Source of the DNA: Chitinophaga pinensis
GTDB taxonomy: Bacteria; Bacteroidota; Bacteroidia; UBA4408
Direction: 5' to 3'
Length of the DNA stretch: 64,000 bases
Assembly: GCA_945872355.1 (NCBI GenBank)
Contig: CAMBZU010000001.1
Coordinates: 16,676-80,675, forward strand
This document shows, one piece after another, positions 4,521 to 63,867 of this stretch (positions are counted from its first letter, which is position 1; the number at the start of each line of letters is the position of its first letter). The notes beneath the pieces are model-generated. The model worked only from the letters and a program-made list of their open reading frames with translations. It did no database searches and was not told where the DNA came from. The position numbers were made by a program, and so were the translations under genes.

Positions 4521-6029
<1,509 letters not shown>

Positions 6030-9354: not shown

Positions 9355-10065
9355 TTACAATTTAATCGATAAAGCGCAATTAATGTTGTAGGACATAGAA
9401 TTGTTTATTACATAGTAACCTTTCATCGAGGTTAATTTCAGATTGTAAAAATTAAGGAAATGATAATCACTCCTTGCTATCAGGAAAATTCCTACTTTCT
9501 TTGTAATTAAATAACCCATTCCTAAAGACGTTGAAACAAAAATACTATTATTTGATACATCTGCTAAAGAAGTTCCAATAGCAATTCTATTATCTGATAT
9601 GTCTGCTTTTCTTTCTGAATTTAATCCACCAATACCTAACCCTATGGTTGGCTGAAGCTTTGTTTTCAGTATTTCCGCGAAATTATACTTAAATTGAATA
9701 TTCAAAGGGATATATCTTCTATTGGATTGTTGGTAGATTCTCTTTCGATTGCTGATAATACCAGTAGATATCAAAGTAGTATCAAAGTAAGCGCCAGTGC
9801 ACATTGAGATACTTGTTTTTTTATTAATCATGTAGTCAAATTCCAAATACAAACCCTTTGCTATTTTTTCATCAAATGGAATAGAAGTCATTTTATTGGA
9901 TAATTCGAAATTTGGGTTAAAGATGCCAAGACCAACTAAAACATTTGCTTTGGATGAATTTACATCTTTGCCTTTATCTTCAGTGATTTTCTCTGTGTTA
10001 ATATTCTGACTAAAGAGTATGATAGGATAGAATAATATTAAATTGATAATGTTAAACTTTTTCAT
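9355..10065 (-). CDS. Outer-membrane beta-barrel (porin-family) protein, hypothetical
   Basis: Signal peptide; alternating amphipathic beta strands; C-terminal ...LSIKL. Confidence 0.5.
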   Translation of the reverse strand: MKKFNIINLILFYPIILFSQNINTEKITEDKGKDVNSSKANVLVGLGIFNPNFELSNKMTSIPFDEKIAKGLYLEFDYMINKKTSISMCTGAYFDTTLISTGIISNRKRIYQQSNRRYIPLNIQFKYNFAEILKTKLQPTIGLGIGGLNSERKADISDNRIAIGTSLADVSNNSIFVSTSLGMGYLITKKVGIFLIARSDYHFLNFYNLKLTSMKGYYVINNSMSYNINCALSIKL

Positions 10066-56534: not shown

Positions 56535-56613
56535 AGGGAGATTAGCTCAGCTGGTTCAGAGCATCTGCCTTACAAGCAGAGGGTCACTGGTTCGAACCCA
56601 GTATCTCCCACCA
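56535..56613 (+). tRNA. tRNA-Val (anticodon TAC)
   Basis: Cloverleaf: acceptor GGGAGAT/ATCTCCC, D-arm GCTC..GAGC, anticodon stem TCTGC/GCAGA with loop CTTACAA, T-arm with GGTTCGAAC, 3' CCA encoded. Confidence 0.8.
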
Positions 56614-56734: not shown

Positions 56735-58282
56735 CTACATTAATATCAACTTCCATACAAAAAGGACTATCAATACTACAGCTAAACCCAAACCAAAAGC
56801 CAAAGCAAATTGTTTTCCCAATGTTTTTTTATCAGGAATAATCTCCTTCATTCTTTCAATAATTTCTACATCATCTTTTTTTGTTAAAAAAGTGACTATA
56901 AGCCATGTTAAAGTTGTCAGAAGCGTAACAATTATTAATCGTGCTTCCTCAAAAGCAAAGCCATAAACAACACTATTTTTATGATATAAATAGGGAAAAA
57001 GTAATGTATAAACACCCGACGAAATCATAGCACTTAATTGCGACCAAGCATTAATGCGATACCAAAACCATCGTAAAATATAGACAGGTGCAACGCCCGC
57101 AGCAATGCTAAATACTACCTTTAACAGCGATTGCAAACTATTTAAATTAAAAGCTATTACAACGCCGCATACAGATAAGAGCAGCATAGAAAAAAAAGAA
57201 ATGATTTGAAAATGTTTCTCACTTTGCTTTGGATTTAAGTACTTTTTATATAAGTCAACAGTTAAAAATGCCCCTCCCCAACTTAACTGAGATTCGGCAG
57301 TTGTTATAAACATTCCAAAAAATCCTATTAAACAAAAGATCTTAAAAAATTCGGGCACACAATTAAATATCGTGTAGATAAATTGAGATTCTCCTAAATT
57401 AGTTTGCTGTTGTGATAAAACTAAAATAGCCATAATTACAATAAAAAAGGATAAAAAGGCATAAAGTAAAATAGGAAACAAGGCAGTTAAAATAGCGTTG
57501 CGCTTGCCTTTTACAGCTGTAAATCTTGCCATTTCTGGCCCACCGCCATCAAATAGCTGAGCACTCCACCATTGTATAAAAACAAATGCAAACCAAGATG
57601 TCCAAGCAAGTTTAACTTCAGATGGTGGAAATAAATTTAATTTAAATGGACCTGAATTTTTAAAATTTACGATGGCAACTTTTAAGCCTCCACTTGTAGT
57701 GTACAAATAATAAAATGCCGTAAACAACACTATAAAATAAATAAACGAATGAAAGAAATCTGTTTTTAATTTAATTTGGAAACTATTTTTTAAAGCAAAT
57801 ACTATTAAAATTAACCCTGTTATGAAAATTGAAGAAAATTTATCAATATGAAAATAAATTTCAATCACTCGCGAAAAAGCCAATATATGATAACTTAAAA
57901 GGATGGCAACAACAAGCCCGCCAACATAAAAAGCACGAAATGCATGTAACACTTTGGCACTAAGACCTGAATAGCGAAATAATAAAAATTGATTATCTGT
58001 TATAAAATCAAGCTTTGACCACAAGGGGGCAAAAACAAATGGCACTATAAATGCGCCTAACAAACTCGACCAAAAAATCCAAAGGCCCCACATGCCTTGA
58101 GCGGCTAAAATGCCAGTAATAACTTGCCCCTGCTCAACAGTAACATAGTACATAAATAAGGAAATGCCCGAAATAAACCACGTAGTTTTTTTACTTGTTT
58201 TAAAAACGCCTTTTAATAATTCCCTTTTTTCAAAGTAAGTAATTAAAAGTATAACAACAATATAAATAAAAAGAACAACCAT
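56735..58282 (-). CDS. Sodium:solute symporter-family transporter
   Basis: 515 aa, about 13 TM segments, SSF-like N-terminal pattern (FISGISLFMYYV..GMWGLWIFW). Confidence 0.65.
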   Translation of the reverse strand: MVVLFIYIVVILLITYFEKRELLKGVFKTSKKTTWFISGISLFMYYVTVEQGQVITGILAAQGMWGLWIFWSSLLGAFIVPFVFAPLWSKLDFITDNQFLLFRYSGLSAKVLHAFRAFYVGGLVVAILLSYHILAFSRVIEIYFHIDKFSSIFITGLILIVFALKNSFQIKLKTDFFHSFIYFIVLFTAFYYLYTTSGGLKVAIVNFKNSGPFKLNLFPPSEVKLAWTSWFAFVFIQWWSAQLFDGGGPEMARFTAVKGKRNAILTALFPILLYAFLSFFIVIMAILVLSQQQTNLGESQFIYTIFNCVPEFFKIFCLIGFFGMFITTAESQLSWGGAFLTVDLYKKYLNPKQSEKHFQIISFFSMLLLSVCGVVIAFNLNSLQSLLKVVFSIAAGVAPVYILRWFWYRINAWSQLSAMISSGVYTLLFPYLYHKNSVVYGFAFEEARLIIVTLLTTLTWLIVTFLTKKDDVEIIERMKEIIPDKKTLGKQFALAFGLGLAVVLIVLFVWKLILM

Positions 58283-58966: not shown

Positions 58967-60067
58967 GTGCCCAAACCTAAATACATATTATCGCCGTACT
59001 TAAAACAAGGCTTGTTTTGGAAAGTAATTGAAACCATTGCATTTCCTATTTACACAAAGGCTGATTGCCGGAAGGTGTGTGAACTTTTTGAGCTAAAAGG
59101 ATTGCCTGTGATATCAGAAAGTACATTGTACCGACTTTTTTTATTGGAGGGAAGTGATAACATTCCCTATTTGCAAACATTAGATATTTTAGCTAAATTT
59201 TGTAATTACAAAGATTGGTACAGTTTAGAAAAACATTTAAACGAACTATCAACATTTGAATTGTCCTTTGGAAAAGTACATGTCAAAAATAGGAGTACAT
59301 TAAGTTTACTAACCTCTTGCATACATCATAACGAATTGAAATCAGTTTATGATTTTTCAGAACAATTTGATGGAAGCCTTGAATTACAAAAAAAAGGAGC
59401 GCTCGGCGAAGAATTTTATAAAGCACTAAAAACAAATCCAAACAAAAACGACTTATTCTTTAAAAATTTTTCCAAATTACCAATAGTTAGAGAAGCATTT
59501 TTTGAATATATGGCTGATCCAACTTTTATAATACCTAGTTACGAAATTGGCTTGAAATATTATCTACTTGGAATAAAACCAGAACAGTCATCAAAATCAT
59601 TACAAGACTTTGTTTTTGGAAATTGTCTATTGTTTAGGTATTATTTTTTAGATAACGATAAATCAGAGTCAAAGAAATTAGGCATAAAATTATATGAAAC
59701 GTATAATTTTTCGTCTAAGGATTTAGCGTCAATACATATCTTTCCAAAAATTCGTTTTTTGGCTTATAAAATATTTTATTTAAATATAAATGGCACAATA
59801 CAAGAAATACAAAAATATGAAATTTGGTTATTAAATTATGTTTCAAAAATTACACAAAAACTTACTTTAGAAGAAAAAAGAATTGTGCTCTTTACAATAG
59901 CAGATGTGTTTGTAAATAATACGAGCACTAAAGTTGATATGCATAATCAATTAAAGCTAATTTTTGGCGACGTATTAAATACATTGCCATCCTTTGTAAG
60001 TGCAACCTCACTGAAGGATGCGCTGCCTTACTTGAACAGAAATGCCGCTAAAATCTGGAAAATATAG
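58967..60067 (+). CDS. Hypothetical protein with N-terminal HTH-like segment (366 aa)
   Basis: LKGLPVISESTLYRLF resembles an HTH recognition helix; the remaining about 300 aa have no recognised motif. Confidence 0.4.
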   Translation: MPKPKYILSPYLKQGLFWKVIETIAFPIYTKADCRKVCELFELKGLPVISESTLYRLFLLEGSDNIPYLQTLDILAKFCNYKDWYSLEKHLNELSTFELSFGKVHVKNRSTLSLLTSCIHHNELKSVYDFSEQFDGSLELQKKGALGEEFYKALKTNPNKNDLFFKNFSKLPIVREAFFEYMADPTFIIPSYEIGLKYYLLGIKPEQSSKSLQDFVFGNCLLFRYYFLDNDKSESKKLGIKLYETYNFSSKDLASIHIFPKIRFLAYKIFYLNINGTIQEIQKYEIWLLNYVSKITQKLTLEEKRIVLFTIADVFVNNTSTKVDMHNQLKLIFGDVLNTLPSFVSATSLKDALPYLNRNAAKIWKI

Positions 60068-60257
60068 CTTAATAAATTATACCAATTACAACAAGCTATT
60101 GTGTCAAAAAGTGTGTTATACTTTTTAATGTTTTACGTACTAAAAAATAAGTACTATAATATATGATGCGCGATACGATATGCATCTTTTATAAAACATA
60201 ATTCGTTCATAAAAAAAACGAGGAATCAAAATTTAAGATTATTCCAATTATAGAGCA

Positions 60258-60271
60258 ATACTTGAACTAAC
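60258..60271. promoter_or_regulatory. Shared promoter-region motif ATACTTGAACTAAC (copy 3, inverted)
   Basis: 61 nt upstream of the start at 60332. Confidence 0.5.
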
Positions 60272-60331
60272 TTAAACTAAAATAAAAAATATCAAAAATA
60301 TATATTTGGTAAACATTTAAAAACTAAAATC

Positions 60332-60712
60332 ATGTCAGAAATCAGCGTTTCAGGAAGAACAAAAGTAAAATCATTTTATCAAGCTTTTTTAAAAGCTTAT
60401 CCTTATTTACATGCAGGCTTACAATATCCTGATGGAAAACCAGTAGATGCTGAATCTACCGTAGCAAATGCGCGAAGCAAATCTATAGGTGGCGATTATA
60501 CTCCAACTGGTGACTCAGAACTTTCAGTAAGAGGCAATTTAAATATTGGAACATTTGAAAAGCGTTTTAAAGAAATATTTTCAATTACATGCCAAGTGCA
60601 TTTTAAAAAGAATGGAAAATGGGTTGTAACGGGGCAGAAATATGATGCTATGACATTAAACGACGCAAACACCTTAATAAAGAATGAAGGTGCAGATTTA
60701 ATAGAATTGTAA
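60332..60712 (+). CDS. Hypothetical protein, tandem paralog A (126 aa)
   Basis: Shares the FY..F...YPYL N-terminal motif and the STVANARSKS / STLANARGRS block with the downstream ORF. Confidence 0.45.
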   Translation: MSEISVSGRTKVKSFYQAFLKAYPYLHAGLQYPDGKPVDAESTVANARSKSIGGDYTPTGDSELSVRGNLNIGTFEKRFKEIFSITCQVHFKKNGKWVVTGQKYDAMTLNDANTLIKNEGADLIEL

Positions 60713-60715
60713 GAA

Positions 60716-61189
60716 ATGGCGGAATTAAAAATAAACGGAAGATTAATAGTTGATAATTTTTATAAAAAATTTGAAGCCATATATCCCTATTTAAATCCAG
60801 CATTATTTTATCCCAAAGAAATAGGAGGAGGTGAAGTTGACACCTCCTCTACTCTTGCCAATGCAAGAGGAAGGTCTTTGAGGCAAGATATTAATGGCTA
60901 TACATCAACTGGTCAAGCAGAAATAAATGTAATAGGCGAAATGAAGATCAAAGATTTTCAAACCGAATTTGAAAATCTTTTCAAAGTAAAGTGTGCTATC
61001 AATTGCAGAATGCCAAATAAAAAGTTTTTTGGATTAGGTAAAACGGAATTTAAATGGGCCGCAGTTGTAAATACCGAATTCGGAAAACTGAATTTACATG
61101 AAGCAAATGCTGCACTCGAAAATCATGGTGCGCAAAAAGTAACTGAGGTTAGAACAAAAGGAAATAATTTGGGGGATAAATTCTTATAA
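60716..61189 (+). CDS. Hypothetical protein, tandem paralog B (157 aa)
   Basis: Paralog of 60332-60712; 3-nt spacing between genes suggests co-translation. Confidence 0.45.
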   Translation: MAELKINGRLIVDNFYKKFEAIYPYLNPALFYPKEIGGGEVDTSSTLANARGRSLRQDINGYTSTGQAEINVIGEMKIKDFQTEFENLFKVKCAINCRMPNKKFFGLGKTEFKWAAVVNTEFGKLNLHEANAALENHGAQKVTEVRTKGNNLGDKFL

Positions 61190-61269: not shown

Positions 61270-61479
61270 ATGGCAAGAACAATGAAAGACGGGAAATTTG
61301 GCGCAGAAGGTAAAGCATATGCGTTTGCTTCAGACAAAATACCCTGTGAAAACTGCAGAAAAATCTTAATTTATAACAAAAGCAAGGCTATACACACATA
61401 TAGTTCAATTGGTATTCTTGGAAAGAAAGACCATAAACAATTTTGCAGTTGGAAATGTGCAGAGCAGTATCATGGTTAA
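61270..61479 (+). CDS. Small zf-FCS/TRASH-like Cys4 zinc-ribbon protein (69 aa)
   Basis: CENC ...(about 30 aa)... FCSWKC arrangement (CxxC..FCSxxC). Confidence 0.45.
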   Translation: MARTMKDGKFGAEGKAYAFASDKIPCENCRKILIYNKSKAIHTYSSIGILGKKDHKQFCSWKCAEQYHG

Positions 61480-61588
61480 AATCTTACAACAATATTTTTT
61501 TGAAAAATTAAAGTAGAGACCAGAACCCACTAAAAAACGGGGCGTAATCCGAAAAGTCAAAAGAGTACGGCTAAAAAAAATCTTACAT

Positions 61589-63349
61589 ATGCATTCAAAT
61601 ATAATTGATAAACCAAGAAAAGAAGGCGCCGATGATTTACTTGGCGTAGATAAATATACAGATGCCTTAATACAATTTATTGAGTCGTGCCAAATGCCTA
61701 CAACATTGGCTATTCAAGGGGAATGGGGAAGTGGAAAAACTTCTTTGTTAAATCAAATTCGCCACAGGCTTTGTGAATCAGTTTTAAATTCAAATGAAAT
61801 TAATAACCAAAAACCTTATTATGGTATTTGGGTAAATACTTGGCAATATTCTTTAATGAAAAGTAAAGATGAGGCCCTGATTGCAATTATTGGTGGACTT
61901 ACCAATGAAATATTAAACATCATAAAAAGCAAACACGAAACCAAAGCAACTGCAACAATAAATAAAGTAAAAGGTTTATTTGGTAAACTTGCAAAGGCAG
62001 GTGCAAAAGCTGCTATCAGTACAGTTGGGATTGAATCAGATATTGTTGATTCACTAACTGAAAGTGATGAAGGTGAAGTAAGTTTGATGCAATTTAAAAA
62101 AGCATTACAAGATGCCATTGAACAATGCTTAACGGAGGATAGAAAATCAGGAAATAATAATCGTGGTTTTATTTTTTTTATTGATGATTTAGATAGAATT
62201 GATCCGCCGGTTGCGGTTGAAATATTAGAATTAATAAAAAATATTTTTGAAGTTGAAAACTGCATTTTTATTTTGGCAATCGATTACGAAGTTGTTGTAA
62301 AAGGGTTGGTACCAAAATTTGGCCCACTTACAGAAAAGAATGAAAGAGAATTCCGTTCTTTTTTTGATAAAATAATTCAGTTACCTTTTTCAATGCCTAT
62401 TGCAAATTATGATGTTGCAAAATTCCTTATTCACTCATTAAAAGATATAGGATATATTGATGATAGATTTGAAAAAGACGAATCCCTTAAAGAAAAATTA
62501 ACTGATTTAACCTTATTATCCGTTGGTACTAATCCAAGATCATTAAAACGACTTATAAATACATTATCACTTTTAAATATCATTGGAAAAATTGAAGAAG
62601 ATGCTGAAAAACAAATTCATGAATTATTTATTAATTATGCATTAGTCTGCATACAGATTGCATATCCAAAAATATATGAATTATTAACGCAGGAACCTTC
62701 CTATAGAGAATGGACGGAGCAAACAGCAAAAAAATTAAGGTTACCCGAGTTAAATGAATCTCAATTAGTAGTTTTAAATAGCACCAATGAATTTGATGAA
62801 GAATGGGAAAAAGTGCTATTCAGAAAATGCCAACAAGATCCTTATATGGCATCTAGAGCATTTCAAATTTCGCAACTATTAAATTATATTATAGAATTGG
62901 TTCCGGAAAACTTAAATTTTACAGAAGAAATAACACGCATCATAGGATTTAGCTCAGTAACAAGTGTTAATCTTGATCCTACTCCAAAGACAATAATAAA
63001 AGGGAATAAAGTTAGATTTGAAGGCTTTGCATCCTTAGAAGAAATGCTGAAATTAAATAAACATTCAGCAGAATATATTTCTAATCTTAAAACAATTCAC
63101 GATAAAATAAAAGATGAATTTAAAGATTTAATCCAAATTAACTACACACCAAATTTTGTAACATTTATATGTGTTTTTCCAAAAGGAAGGAGTAAAACAT
63201 TTTTATTTATCAGATTCAAAAAAAGCAATGTCATGTTTGAATTTGCTGGACAAACAATCCTAATAAATCAATCATCTGATTTTACAACTGAAGTTATGGG
63301 TAAATTAAAGTTAGCTTTTAACAATTTATCATCAAAGGAATTAAATTAG
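61589..63349 (+). CDS. KAP-family P-loop NTPase
   Basis: Walker A GEWGSGKTS in the KAP context (LGVDKYTDALIQFIES...LAIQGEWGSGKTSLLNQI), Walker B FIFFIDDLDRIDP; 586 aa. Confidence 0.75.
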   Translation: MHSNIIDKPRKEGADDLLGVDKYTDALIQFIESCQMPTTLAIQGEWGSGKTSLLNQIRHRLCESVLNSNEINNQKPYYGIWVNTWQYSLMKSKDEALIAIIGGLTNEILNIIKSKHETKATATINKVKGLFGKLAKAGAKAAISTVGIESDIVDSLTESDEGEVSLMQFKKALQDAIEQCLTEDRKSGNNNRGFIFFIDDLDRIDPPVAVEILELIKNIFEVENCIFILAIDYEVVVKGLVPKFGPLTEKNEREFRSFFDKIIQLPFSMPIANYDVAKFLIHSLKDIGYIDDRFEKDESLKEKLTDLTLLSVGTNPRSLKRLINTLSLLNIIGKIEEDAEKQIHELFINYALVCIQIAYPKIYELLTQEPSYREWTEQTAKKLRLPELNESQLVVLNSTNEFDEEWEKVLFRKCQQDPYMASRAFQISQLLNYIIELVPENLNFTEEITRIIGFSSVTSVNLDPTPKTIIKGNKVRFEGFASLEEMLKLNKHSAEYISNLKTIHDKIKDEFKDLIQINYTPNFVTFICVFPKGRSKTFLFIRFKKSNVMFEFAGQTILINQSSDFTTEVMGKLKLAFNNLSSKELN

Positions 63350-63534
63350 TAATACTGATGTTTTATAATGTTTGGATTTAAAGGAAAATATGGCTTTTCA
63401 TTTTCTTGGAAAAGATTGTTGGGAATTAGTGGGATGCGCAATAGTGTTGCAAATAAAACTGGTATACCAACAACAAGAGGCGGTGTTGAAAGGAAAATAG
63501 GCAGGCTGTTATTAAATTTAATATTTGGCAAAAA

Positions 63535-63867
63535 ATGAAAAATAATCCTGCAGAATTAAATTCTAATTTTTCTATTAAATTAATGCTATTTTATCTTTTA
63601 TCTTCTTTTTTTGGCGGCTTGTTGTTTAGCATATTATCCTATAGGTCAAGAAAGAAAGGTAACACCGGGTTTGGTTGGATTATCTTATCAATAGTATTCA
63701 TTGTTATTTTTAGCTACATATCATTTGCATTATATAAAACATCGAGTGCAAATCACGATGCGTTTTGGTATTATTTAAGTTTAAGCACAATTGTAGCAAA
63801 TAGCATTGCCCTTTTCATTTTATTAATGTCATTTTTTTTAAATAGAAGTAATGGGATTAGTTCGTGA
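63535..63867 (+). CDS. Small membrane protein (110 aa, 3 TM)
   Basis: Hydrophobic segments; no motif. Confidence 0.4.
   Translation: MKNNPAELNSNFSIKLMLFYLLSSFFGGLLFSILSYRSRKKGNTGFGWIILSIVFIVIFSYISFALYKTSSANHDAFWYYLSLSTIVANSIALFILLMSFFLNRSNGISS

What the first reader, a model, noticed from the sequence alone, without database searches (positions are those of the whole stretch)
60332..61189. Tandemly duplicated, diverged small proteins of unknown family (126 and 157 aa)
The two adjacent ORFs share alignable blocks (N-terminal F-Y-x-x-F-x-x-x-Y-P-Y-L; S-T-[VL]-A-N-A-R-[SG]-[KR]-S; C-terminal L-x-[DE]-A-N) at about 30% identity, and their start and stop are 3 nt apart. Diverged tandem paralogs like these often form hetero-oligomers such as toxin/immunity or sensor pairs. 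I cannot assign them to any family I know.
Basis: seen in the sequence. Interest (0 to 1): 0.5.

Follow-up and report, generated by a model that had tools for sequence, protein, structure and literature searches.

The report
Paired small proteins beside KAP NTPase
Two adjacent small genes are genuine diverged copies of each other and belong to an undescribed Bacteroidota protein family; each protein is built from two ubiquitin-like-looking halves, and the family usually sits in variable, membrane-linked gene clusters, most of which contain a KAP ATPase.

Summary
ORF-A (60332-60712, 126 aa) and ORF-B (60716-61189, 157 aa) are paralogs (BLASTP E=2e-26, 34% identity), 3 nt apart, and both are under purifying selection.

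No Pfam, NCBIfam, PHROG, PADLOC or PDB-sequence match exists. Each protein is itself an internal duplication of a beta-alpha-beta unit. The AlphaFold models are confident, but their only structural neighbours are weak ubiquitin-like hits.

The family is wider than this pair: 261 clusters at E<=0.001, with those that carry a source organism name from Bacteroidota. Members occur alone, as AB-AB fusions, or N-terminal to variable repeat domains.

Genomic context is the strongest lead. A heads a conserved but cassette-shuffled cluster: HTH-like 366-aa protein, A, a variable slot, KAP NTPase, a 56-aa peptide, membrane proteins, a UDG-like protein and DUF481. B plus a zinc-ribbon ORF and a DUF805 RNA motif fill the variable slot here, and a near-identical genome has other genes there. 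DUF805/DUF805b RNA motifs lie directly upstream of AB genes in five locus types.

B is optional, so a toxin/immunity pair is not supported. Fusion proteins make a hetero-complex of AB paralogs plausible.

My best reading (about 40%) is that these are non-enzymatic adaptor or specificity subunits of a KAP/TerB/OmpA membrane-associated conflict or stress system.

The parts
60332..60712 (+). ORF-A, 126 aa. It is the 'constant' member of the AB family: two beta-alpha-beta units plus C-terminal helices, no signal peptide or TM segment, pI 8.6.
   Evidence: ORF and translation. Paralogy to B. Homologues: 93 clusters at the 90% identity level for A- and B-types together, roughly two-thirds A-type. 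AF2 model: pLDDT 84.6, pTM 0.74. Internal repeat: hhalign 92%, E=5.9e-7. dN/dS 0.08-0.27. pI.
60716..61189 (+). ORF-B, 157 aa. It is the optional paralog. Unit 1 (res 1-58) and the C-terminal tail (143-157) are near-invariant across B-types. Unit 2 (59-125) is hypervariable and carries an extended beta-hairpin insertion.
   Evidence: AF2 model: pLDDT 88.0, pTM 0.84, same element order as A, tail at pLDDT 53-72. Column entropy 0.37 vs 1.23 bits. Against L014, identity is about 100% for the first ~100 nt, then 50-75% over 60830-61125. dS is 0.85 vs 0.08 for A.
61270..61479 (+). 69-aa four-Cys zinc-ribbon ORF of the FCS/YdaE type. It belongs to the variable cassette together with B.
   Evidence: Weak, below-cutoff matches to zf-FCS (E=0.0037) and YdaE (E=0.0058). 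Analogous 73-74-aa C-x2-C...FC[ST]-x2-C ORFs follow B in L017 and follow a DUF805 RNA in L016. Absent in L014.
61508..61576 (+). DUF805 RNA motif (Rfam RF03081), a candidate cis-regulatory leader, 12 nt upstream of the KAP start codon.
   Evidence: 65.3 bits against a gathering score of 51.1, E=9.6e-11, full-length match. The same leader (85% identity) precedes a different gene in L016.
61589..63349 (+). KAP-family P-loop NTPase, 586 aa, with a C-terminal ~90-aa domain that is shared with 258-aa TerB proteins of related loci.
   Evidence: Pfam KAP_NTPase E=2.8e-38. PADLOC PDC-S20 2.1e-32, PifA 7.4e-31, QatA 2.1e-18. 98-99% aa identity and dN/dS about 0.02 against L013/L014. Shared C-domain: BLAST family 1.
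63368..63538 (+). 56-aa peptide 'MFGFKGKYGFSFSWKRLLGISG...'. It is near-invariant and a constant member of the cluster.
   Evidence: Found in 21 loci spanning genomes from the AT-rich window (about 30% GC) to visibly GC-rich MAGs. No Pfam hit.
63535..63867 (+). 110-aa multi-pass membrane protein, a constant member of the cluster, with a faint resemblance to DUF805.
   Evidence: Family 6. Pfam DUF805 is only E=0.16-0.18 for orthologues. The cluster then runs off the window end; in the relatives L013/L014 it continues with a TM60 protein (plus TM130 in L014), a UDG-like protein and DUF481.
58967..60067 (+). 366-aa conserved neighbour, possibly with an N-terminal helix-turn-helix. It is usually found next to A, in either orientation.
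   Evidence: Homologues occur in 17 loci. No family hit. The HTH assignment is my inference from the motif '...ISESTLYRLF'.
60068..60331 (.). 264-nt AT-rich intergenic region upstream of A, presumed to hold the promoter. It contains no recognisable RNA family.
   Evidence: No Rfam match at E<=10 between 60000 and the start of A at 60332. No + strand terminator-like site lies between A and the window end.

Best explanation
A and B are two paralogous members of an undescribed Bacteroidota domain family, here called 'AB'. Each is one small cytoplasmic, non-enzymatic domain made by internal duplication of a beta-alpha-beta unit, with a loosely ubiquitin-like/beta-grasp look.

I propose that they act as protein-protein adaptor or specificity subunits of the gene cluster they head. 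That cluster is membrane-associated and centred on a KAP P-loop NTPase. Relatives carry a TerB protein with the same C-terminal domain, plus OmpA-domain, DUF4230, UDG-like, DUF481 and small membrane proteins.

A is the constant subunit. B is an exchangeable accessory. Its invariant first unit and invariant disordered tail would dock on a common partner (A, or the NTPase), and its hypervariable second unit would provide variable recognition.

The cluster's biological role is inferred to be biological conflict (anti-phage or anti-invader) or envelope-stress sensing. Conditional on the adaptor model I would split this roughly 50:30, with 20% for something else.

Shown: paralogy, internal repeat, fold topology, family breadth, gene-neighbourhood linkage, cassette mosaicism, fusion architectures. 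Inferred: adaptor role, docking/recognition split, system role.
For: 1. The proteins look non-enzymatic and soluble. There is no catalytic-family hit in four HMM libraries or among PDB sequences. I see no signal peptide or TM segment in the sequences. The models are confident: pLDDT 84.6 and 88.0.

3. Linkage is consistent across lineages. AB genes lie in the same-strand cluster as four different KAP NTPase lineages: 586-aa (window, L001, L004, L014, L016, L020, L021), 631-aa (L013), 653-aa (L032) and 605-aa (L018, divergent). TerB+KAP-C-domain proteins take that place in L007, L010 and L011. Distant members keep an OmpA/DUF4230/TerB/TPM context.

4. Domain architecture fits an adaptor joined to variable sensors. 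Nearly identical N-terminal AB domains are fused to variable C-termini: Fib_succ_major 4, WG repeats 3, ankyrin 2, L7/L12 CTD 2, FGE-sulfatase 1, DUF4116 1, DUF533/TerB-like 1, and about 50 of 65 unassigned.

5. AB-AB fusions of two different subtypes exist.

6. B shows a constant-unit / variable-unit / constant-tail pattern.

7. The locus is mosaic among near-identical genomes. Against L013, homology stops exactly at the A stop codon and resumes at the KAP start. Against L014, it breaks inside B.
Against:
- Structural similarity to beta-grasp is below significance, so even the fold class is tentative.
- 8 of 19 locus types have no KAP NTPase in the sequence available.
- Several fusion partners (Fib_succ_major, WG repeats) are more typical of exported proteins, although the AB domain sits at the extreme N-terminus without a signal peptide.
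- Outside the KAP gene, only generic domain-level or marginal PADLOC matches were found: the OmpA domain matches ZorB/MotB, and the TerB protein matches PDC-S48/BnzA at E about 0.002-0.007.
- The cluster keeps chromosomal synteny with an SSF transporter or GAPDH within lineages. It could therefore be a housekeeping envelope locus rather than an immune island.
- The divergence in B unit 2 shows dN/dS of about 0.26 with saturated dS. That is old allelic variation, not demonstrated diversifying selection.
Confidence: 0.4

Rival explanations
1. A and B are RNA-binding regulators, autoregulatory or operon-regulatory, that recognise the DUF805/DUF805b leader RNAs scattered through the cluster. This would resemble ribosomal-protein leaders.
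For: DUF805 or DUF805b motifs lie 12-30 nt upstream of AB genes in L016, L027, L004, L013 (AB132) and L026 (AB108), and upstream of KAP in the window's own operon. The proteins are mildly basic, with family median pI 9.3-9.4. Two relatives are fused to an L7/L12 C-terminal domain. The neighbouring small ORFs are an FCS zinc ribbon or a very basic peptide.
Against: The window's own A has no such RNA upstream, even at E<=10. L001, L014 and L032 have AB genes but no motif. The motif also precedes non-AB genes: cc89, Zn74, a 78-aa ORF and KAP. No known RNA-binding fold or motif was detected.
Confidence: 0.12
2. A and B are a toxin-antitoxin or toxin-immunity pair.
For: The genes are adjacent, small and separated by 3 nt, in a variable region near a defence-type NTPase.
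Against: The two are paralogs of the same fold, which TA/immunity pairs are not. There are no toxin, antitoxin or immunity family hits. B is absent from most A loci and is separated from A in L010. A is strongly conserved rather than fast-evolving.
Confidence: 0.03
3. A and B are conjugatable ubiquitin-like modifiers, tandem-Ubl proteins comparable to ISG15/BilA-type bacterial systems.
Against: There is no C-terminal Gly-Gly: A ends ...DLIEL and B ends ...GDKFL. No E1, E2 or JAB/DUB gene appears in any of the roughly 19 locus types. The similarity is not significant (Foldseek E>=0.1, TM about 0.27).
Confidence: 0.03
4. A and B are housekeeping small proteins of freshwater Flavobacteriales, for example nucleoid-, ribosome- or membrane-associated. 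On this view their adjacency to the KAP cluster reflects shared regulation or chromosomal history rather than a joint machine.
For: A is highly conserved and evenly constrained. The locus keeps synteny with SSF/GAPDH genes within lineages. No phage, plasmid or viral-contig copies were found.
Against: The family was found in only 14 of 185,579 species genomes with the close-relative pattern used, so it is not a core gene. Linkage to KAP/TerB/OmpA persists in distant members in unrelated flanks. Cassette replacement occurs exactly at gene boundaries.
Confidence: 0.12

Closest known systems
Tandem ubiquitin-like proteins (ISG15, linear di-ubiquitin, bacterial BilA-type Ubls)
   Same: Small proteins built of two consecutive beta-grasp-like units. 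They are the top, but non-significant, structural neighbours.
[not shown]
   Different: 2% identity, it covers half of the query, and the biology is unrelated. This is fold-level resemblance at most.
KAP NTPase anti-phage genes in PADLOC (PDC-S20 candidate, PifA, QatA of QatABCD)
   Same: The adjacent 586-aa gene matches these models at 2e-32, 7e-31 and 2e-18. Like defence loci, the region is mosaic between close strains.
   Different: A and B match no component model. QatB/C/D are absent. PifA and PDC-S20 are single-gene entries, whereas here the KAP gene sits in a 10-gene conserved cluster. No defence phenotype is known.
Adaptor ('effector-associated') domains of NTPase-centred conflict systems described by comparative genomics (Aravind group; recalled from memory, not checked here)
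   Same: A small domain that occurs both stand-alone and at the N-terminus of proteins with highly variable repeat/sensor C-termini (ankyrin, FGE-sulfatase, WG repeats), encoded next to a P-loop NTPase.
   Different: Different fold (alpha/beta, not death-like helical). No copy of the AB domain was seen in the KAP NTPase itself, so the homotypic-pairing logic of those adaptors is not evident.
DUF805 / DUF805b RNA motifs (Rfam RF03081, RF02914, clan CL00115)
   Same: AB genes are frequent immediate downstream genes of these orphan cis-regulatory candidates in the loci examined. One copy lies in the window's operon.
   Different: The motif was named for DUF805 membrane proteins, not for this family. 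It is absent upstream of the window's A/B. Its ligand and mechanism are unknown.

Membership tests
Ubiquitin-like / beta-grasp fold superfamily | Significant structural superposition on a beta-grasp core (mixed sheet gripping one helix) | tested here: inconclusive
   [not shown]
Ubiquitin-like / beta-grasp fold superfamily | Sequence-profile match to a Ubl family | tested here: not met
   No Pfam hit for A or B at E<=1. Only a distant relative (P0102) gives Ubiquitin_2 at 22.3 bits, below the 23.1 cutoff.
Conjugatable prokaryotic Ubl systems (Bil/ISG15-like, Pup, SAMP/TtuB) | C-terminal Gly or Gly-Gly available for conjugation | tested here: not met
   A ends ...GADLIEL and B ends ...NLGDKFL. 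The family alignments show no conserved terminal Gly.
Conjugatable prokaryotic Ubl systems (Bil/ISG15-like, Pup, SAMP/TtuB) | E1-like, E2-like or JAB deubiquitinase genes in the neighbourhood | tested here: not met
   None appears among the Pfam annotations of the neighbours in about 19 locus types.
Type II toxin-antitoxin or toxin-immunity pair | Two unrelated partners, one carrying a toxin domain | tested here: not met
   A and B are homologous (E=2e-26) with the same topology. No toxin or antitoxin family hit.
Type II toxin-antitoxin or toxin-immunity pair | Obligate co-occurrence of the two genes | tested here: not met
   A occurs without B in L004, L007, L011, L013, L016 and L021. A and B are separated by three genes in L010.
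PADLOC KAP-NTPase defence entries (PDC-S20, PifA, QatABCD) | KAP P-loop NTPase present | tested here: met
   Window 61589-63349: Pfam KAP_NTPase 2.8e-38; PDC-S20 2.1e-32, PifA 7.4e-31.
PADLOC KAP-NTPase defence entries (PDC-S20, PifA, QatABCD) | A/B or the other cluster genes correspond to defined system components (e.g. QatB/C/D) | tested here: not met
   No PADLOC hit for A, B, Zn69 or the 366-aa protein. In L013, the UDG-like, DUF481, DUF4230 and hemopexin proteins have none. Only OmpA gives a domain-level match to ZorB, and the TerB protein gives marginal PDC-S48/BnzA matches at E about 0.002-0.007.
PADLOC KAP-NTPase defence entries (PDC-S20, PifA, QatABCD) | Protection against phage infection | not testable with these tools
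   Requires an experiment.
Genes controlled by DUF805/DUF805b RNA motifs | RF03081 or RF02914 match immediately upstream of the gene on the same strand | tested here: not met
   For the window's A/B there is no match at E<=10 between 60000 and the start of A at 60332. The feature is met for the KAP gene of the same operon (61508-61576). It is also met for AB homologues in L016, L027, L004, L013 and L026.
Any curated protein family (Pfam-A 2025, NCBIfam 20, PHROGs v4, PADLOC 2.0, PDB sequences) | Profile or sequence match above threshold | tested here: not met
   All 185 homologues returned with source names are 'hypothetical protein' with no precomputed Pfam domain.

The most novel reading that the evidence does not exclude
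The AB domain is the hallmark adaptor of a previously unrecognised, cassette-shuffling multi-gene system of Bacteroidota. The system comprises a KAP NTPase or TerB protein, OmpA-domain, UDG-like and DUF481 proteins, and micro-peptides. Its cassettes are individually headed by the orphan DUF805/DUF805b RNA leaders. In this reading, B-type paralogs and the AB-fused repeat proteins supply exchangeable recognition specificity, as in an innate-immunity-like sensor array. The AB proteins would also give the first functional handle on the DUF805 RNA motif.
Probability: 0.22. Interest if true: 0.75.

Novelty: new variant of a known kind. Interest (0 to 1): 0.55.

Why it matters
If the reading is right, this defines a new protein domain family for Pfam and similar databases. 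It has at least 261 clusters at 50% identity and is present in freshwater Flavobacteriales and Bacteroidales MAGs. The work ties that family to three poorly understood things:
- KAP NTPases outside the few characterised defence genes.
- TerB/OmpA/DUF4230 membrane clusters.
- The orphan DUF805/DUF805b RNA motifs, whose regulated genes and ligand are unknown.

The constant-unit / variable-unit design of B, the polymorphic AB fusions and the strain-level cassette swapping are the hallmarks of recognition modules in conflict systems. The locus is therefore a concrete candidate for a new Bacteroidota defence or envelope-surveillance system.

If the reading is wrong, the pair is simply a lineage-restricted duplicated small protein of unknown role.

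Tried and rejected
- **HMM libraries and PDB sequences.** Pfam, NCBIfam, PADLOC and PHROGs scans of A, B and five more divergent paralogs gave nothing above noise, as did PDB sequence/profile searches (with B and with a superfamily profile).
- **Mobile-element origin.** There was no tblastn hit in 50,697 phage records or 72,556 plasmids, and no confirmed hit in IMG/VR. This origin is rejected.
- **Shared domain between AB fusions and the KAP C-terminus.** The middle domain of the AB-fusion proteins (P0120/P0124 type) was tested against the KAP C-terminal domain. hhalign probability was 0.1%, so this is rejected.
- **Hairpin inside B.** The perfect 9-bp hairpin at 60825-60849, flagged as terminator-like on the minus strand, is not conserved in L014 despite an identical peptide. 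I treat it as coincidental.
- **Positive selection on B unit 2.** Crude NG86 gives dN 0.40 and dS about 1.5, which does not support it.
- **Literature.** Searches for the DUF805 RNA motif and for KAP/TerB/OmpA/DUF4230 clusters found nothing relevant. The 2017 RNA-motif survey text held here does not mention DUF805, and its supplements are not held.
- **Contexts of long AB fusions.** A third homologue search aimed at these returned only short proteins on short contigs. One context (L035) again showed OmpA/DUF4407/DUF350 neighbours, and the other (L036) was uninformative.
Full report
**1. The observation**

ORF-A (60332-60712, 126 aa) and ORF-B (60716-61189, 157 aa) lie on the + strand in the same frame. 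BLASTP of the two proteins gives 34% identity over 142 columns, E=2e-26, so the paralogy is not a chance resemblance.

Both are real genes. Against orthologues in related metagenomic loci, dN/dS is 0.08-0.27 for A and 0.11-0.23 for B. A profile of the pair finds 93 clusters of homologues (90% identity level), falling into a 125-132-aa 'A-type' and a 148-174-aa 'B-type'. The overlapping minus-strand ORFs (60496-60672, 60648-60803) are low-complexity and have no support.

**2. No known family**

A and B have no match in Pfam-A, NCBIfam or PADLOC at E<=1. B has two chance-level PHROG matches (E 0.046 and 0.2). No PDB chain matches B by sequence. Five more divergent paralogs and ten distant relatives are equally negative in Pfam. 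The one exception is a sub-threshold Ubiquitin_2 match in one distant relative (22.3 bits vs a 23.1 cutoff). A profile of the wider superfamily against PDB sequences finds nothing. Every homologue that carries a source name is 'hypothetical protein', and none has a precomputed Pfam domain.

**3. Anatomy of the proteins**

AlphaFold2 with family alignments gives confident models:
- A: pLDDT 84.6, pTM 0.74, with elements E4-7, H12-22, E27-31, H44-51, E63-66, H72-83, E86-93, E96-99, H101-105, H109-118.
- B: pLDDT 88.0, pTM 0.84, with the same element order. B has a longer beta-hairpin (92-101/111-116) around an inserted loop, and a low-confidence C-terminal tail at 143-157.

The N-terminal beta-alpha-beta unit is homologous to the second one (hhalign 92%, E=5.9e-7; 'SEISVSGRTKVKSFYQAFLKAY' against 'SELSVRGNLNIGTFEKRFKEIF'). 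Each protein is therefore itself an ancient internal duplication.

There is no signal peptide or TM segment. pI is 8.6 for A and 9.0 for B, with family medians of 9.3-9.4.

**4. A larger superfamily**

An exhaustive profile search of 1.84 billion representatives finds 261 clusters at E<=0.001. Members are of three kinds:
- Stand-alone proteins of about 100-135 aa.
- Proteins with two AB domains, such as P0102, P0104 and P0112.
- Long proteins (up to 1,294 aa) whose extreme N-terminus is an AB domain followed by variable sequence.

Among 65 long representatives, Pfam recognises Fib_succ_major (4), WG repeats (3), ankyrin (2), ribosomal L7/L12 C-terminal domain (2), FGE-sulfatase (1), DUF4116 (1) and DUF533/TerB-like (1). 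The remaining 50 or so have no assignable domain. Named members come from Flavobacteriales and Bacteroidales MAGs.

In P0112, P0138 and P0152 the first AB domain is of the B'/108-aa subtype and the second is of the A subtype. This is a Rosetta-stone hint that two different AB paralogs work together.

**5. Genomic context**

I fetched 37 related loci and clustered their ORFs. A is the first gene of a conserved same-strand cluster:

[366-aa HTH-like protein] - A - [variable slot] - KAP NTPase (586 aa) - 56-aa peptide (MFGFKGKYG...) - 106/110-aa membrane protein - 130-aa and 60-aa membrane proteins - UDG-superfamily-like 296-aa protein - DUF481 outer-membrane protein.

The window holds this cluster up to the 110-aa membrane protein and then ends.

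The variable slot contains one of the following:
- B157 (window, L014, L017, L018).
- A different paralog, B'152 (L001, L020, L027; hhalign 93% to the family).
- A very basic 51-53-aa peptide followed by a TerB protein, an OmpA-domain protein and DUF4230 (L007, L011, L013).
- A coiled-coil 89-aa protein plus a UDG-like protein (L004).
- OmpA alone (L016, L021).

In L010, A and B are separated by TerB, OmpA and UDG-like genes. L013/L015 carry a second, divergent module: AB132 - AB135 - 176 aa - hemopexin-like - KAP631 - cc89.

By my count, 11 of 19 non-redundant locus types contain a KAP NTPase within about 10 kb. Three more contain a 258-aa TerB protein whose C-terminal ~90 residues are homologous to the KAP C-terminus. 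Distant AB members keep the theme. P0255 (108 aa) is immediately followed by a 653-aa KAP NTPase. P0241 (100 aa) sits among DUF4230 x2, OmpA, TPM and TerB genes. P0358 sits with DUF4407, OmpA and DUF350.

The KAP gene matches the PADLOC models PDC-S20 (2e-32), PifA (7e-31) and QatA (2e-18). Among the other cluster genes, only the OmpA domain gives a generic ZorB/MotB match, and the TerB protein gives marginal PDC-S48/BnzA matches.

**6. Mosaicism**

Against L013 (A 95% identical, KAP 99%), nucleotide homology runs through the 366-aa gene and A. It stops at window position 60718 and resumes at 61588, the KAP start. In L013 the interval holds four different genes.

Against L014 (A 96%, KAP 98%), identity is about 98-100% through A and the first ~100 nt of B. 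It falls to 50-75% between 60830 and 61125 and recovers at the 3' end of B. The zinc-ribbon ORF and the RNA motif are absent in L014.

Synonymous divergence between the window and L014 is 0.08 for A, 0.85 for B and 0.26 for KAP. B is therefore an exchanged allele or cassette, not a vertically co-inherited partner of A.

Across 23 B-type sequences the first unit (1-58) has a mean column entropy of 0.37 bits, and the second unit has 1.23. The tail 'RTKGNNLGDKFL' is conserved yet predicted disordered. A-type proteins are evenly conserved at about 0.8 bits. A crude dN/dS of about 0.26 in the variable unit, with saturated dS, does not demonstrate positive selection.

**7. An RNA element**

Rfam finds a full-length DUF805 RNA motif (RF03081) at 61508-61576 (+). 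It scores 65.3 bits against a gathering score of 51.1 and ends 12 nt before the KAP start codon.

In related loci, DUF805 or DUF805b motifs lie directly upstream of AB genes:
- L016: 9911-9980, with A starting at 10001.
- L027: 9917-9988, with A starting at 10001.
- L004: 5943-5975, with A starting at 6001.
- L013: 8092-8024 on the minus strand, upstream of AB132.
- L026: 5401-5369 on the minus strand, upstream of AB108.

They also lie upstream of cc89, a zinc-ribbon ORF and a 78-aa ORF. The window's leader is 85% identical to one in L016 that precedes a different gene.

The window's own A has no such motif, even at E<=10, and some AB loci have none. The motif therefore marks this kind of cluster rather than AB genes specifically. 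It is an orphan cis-regulatory candidate, and I could not retrieve any description of it from the held literature.

**8. Interpretation**

What is shown:
- A lineage-restricted, undescribed two-unit domain family.
- Consistent operonic linkage with KAP NTPases or TerB/OmpA membrane proteins.
- Strain-level cassette exchange.
- Polymorphic N-terminal fusions.
- AB-AB fusions.

What I infer, at about 0.4 confidence, is that AB proteins are non-enzymatic adaptor or specificity subunits of this membrane-associated NTPase system. A would be the constant subunit and B an exchangeable one. B's invariant unit and tail would dock on a common partner, and its variable unit would recognise something variable. 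The system itself may serve conflict/defence or envelope-stress sensing.

The rivals are:
- An RNA-binding regulator of the DUF805 leaders (0.12).
- A housekeeping protein merely co-located with the cluster (0.12).
- A conjugatable Ubl (0.03; no Gly-Gly tail, no E1/E2).
- A toxin-immunity pair (0.03; the proteins are paralogs, B is optional, no toxin domain).

About 0.3 remains unassigned.

**9.

Unknown family, KAP linkage and a possible hetero-complex stand. Toxin/immunity and an obligate pair do not.

**10. Novelty and score**

No database or paper available here describes this domain or this cluster. The nearest concepts are tandem Ubl proteins, adaptor domains of NTPase conflict systems, and KAP NTPase defence genes. 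These are analogies, and every membership test that could be run failed or was inconclusive. I rate it a new variant of a known kind, with interest 0.55.

Noticed in passing
window 61508-61576 (+): Full-length DUF805 RNA motif (Rfam RF03081; 65.3 bits, gathering score 51.1), 12 nt upstream of the KAP NTPase start. DUF805/DUF805b copies precede different cassettes (AB genes, cc89, zinc-ribbon ORF, 78-aa ORF) in related loci.
   Followed up: partly
window 63368-63538 (+); L001 6848-7018, L004 9337-9507, L007 9573-9743 and 17 other loci: A 56-aa peptide (MFGFKGKYGFSFSWKRLLGISG...TGIPTT.GG.ERKIGR) is almost invariant across genomes ranging from the AT-rich window (about 30% GC) to visibly GC-rich MAGs. 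It always sits just before a 100-114-aa multi-pass membrane protein. It has no family assignment.
   Followed up: no
window 63100-63349 (C-terminus of KAP); L007 6572-7348; L013 10571-11350: The last ~90 residues of the KAP NTPase (...NYTPNFVTF...KTFLFIRFKK..V.FEFAG...) form a separate module. It also ends 257-259-aa proteins whose N-terminus is a TerB domain. In some genomes those TerB proteins occupy the KAP position.
   Followed up: partly
L013 1723-8092 (-) (same in L015): A genome with 95% identical A carries a 6.6-kb extra module between the SSF transporter and the 366-aa gene: DUF805 RNA - AB132 - AB135 - 176 aa - hemopexin-like 381 aa - KAP631 - DUF805b RNA - cc89 - 84 aa - 237 aa. It is a second, paralogous AB/KAP operon.
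   Followed up: partly
window 60830-61125 vs L014 5540-5835: A recombination-like break lies inside B. Flanks are ~98-100% identical, but the middle of B is only 50-75% identical (dS about 1.5). This coincides with the hypervariable second unit of B-type proteins.
   Followed up: yes
L007 6398-6559, L011 8394-8555, L013 10393-10548: An extremely basic 51-53-aa peptide (MPAKTRKIKAKRRKDGKLDKRTKKGKEIAARLTKARAARK...KKKRFLFW) directly follows A in loci that lack B. It is conserved across very different GC contents.
   Followed up: no
L014 3537-4766 and L016 13370-14599: A 409-aa protein that looks like EcsC (N-terminal) plus TerB (C-terminal) by eye is ~95% identical in two genomes. It is inserted at different places in the cluster (before A, and before KAP), as if it were a mobile cassette. 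In L014 a neighbouring AAA-type ATPase gene is flanked by two copies of a ~200-nt repeat.
   Followed up: no
L001 9593-10486, L004 6731-7567, L007 8752-9561, L010 7106-7909: Conserved 260-300-aa cluster proteins give borderline Pfam UDG-superfamily matches (E 1e-6 to 1e-4, around the gathering score). A DNA-glycosylase-like fold in a membrane/NTPase cluster is unexpected.
   Followed up: partly
window 56536-56613 (+) and 56735-58282 (-): tRNA-Val(TAC) and an SSF-family transporter flank the cluster on the left. The SSF gene and the 366-aa gene stay adjacent and divergent in distant genomes (L010, L011), even where the rest of the cluster lies on the other side.
   Followed up: no
window 60825-60849: A perfect 9-bp inverted repeat (GAGGAGGTG...CACCTCCTC) lies inside B, coding for GGGEVDTSS. 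It is not conserved in L014, which encodes the same peptide, so it is probably coincidental.
   Followed up: yes
window 61270-61479 (+); L016 11722-11946; L017 10861-11082: Small four-Cys zinc-ribbon ORFs with an 'FC[ST]xxC' (FCS-like) signature recur after B or after a DUF805 RNA. There are only weak matches to zf-FCS and YdaE.
   Followed up: partly
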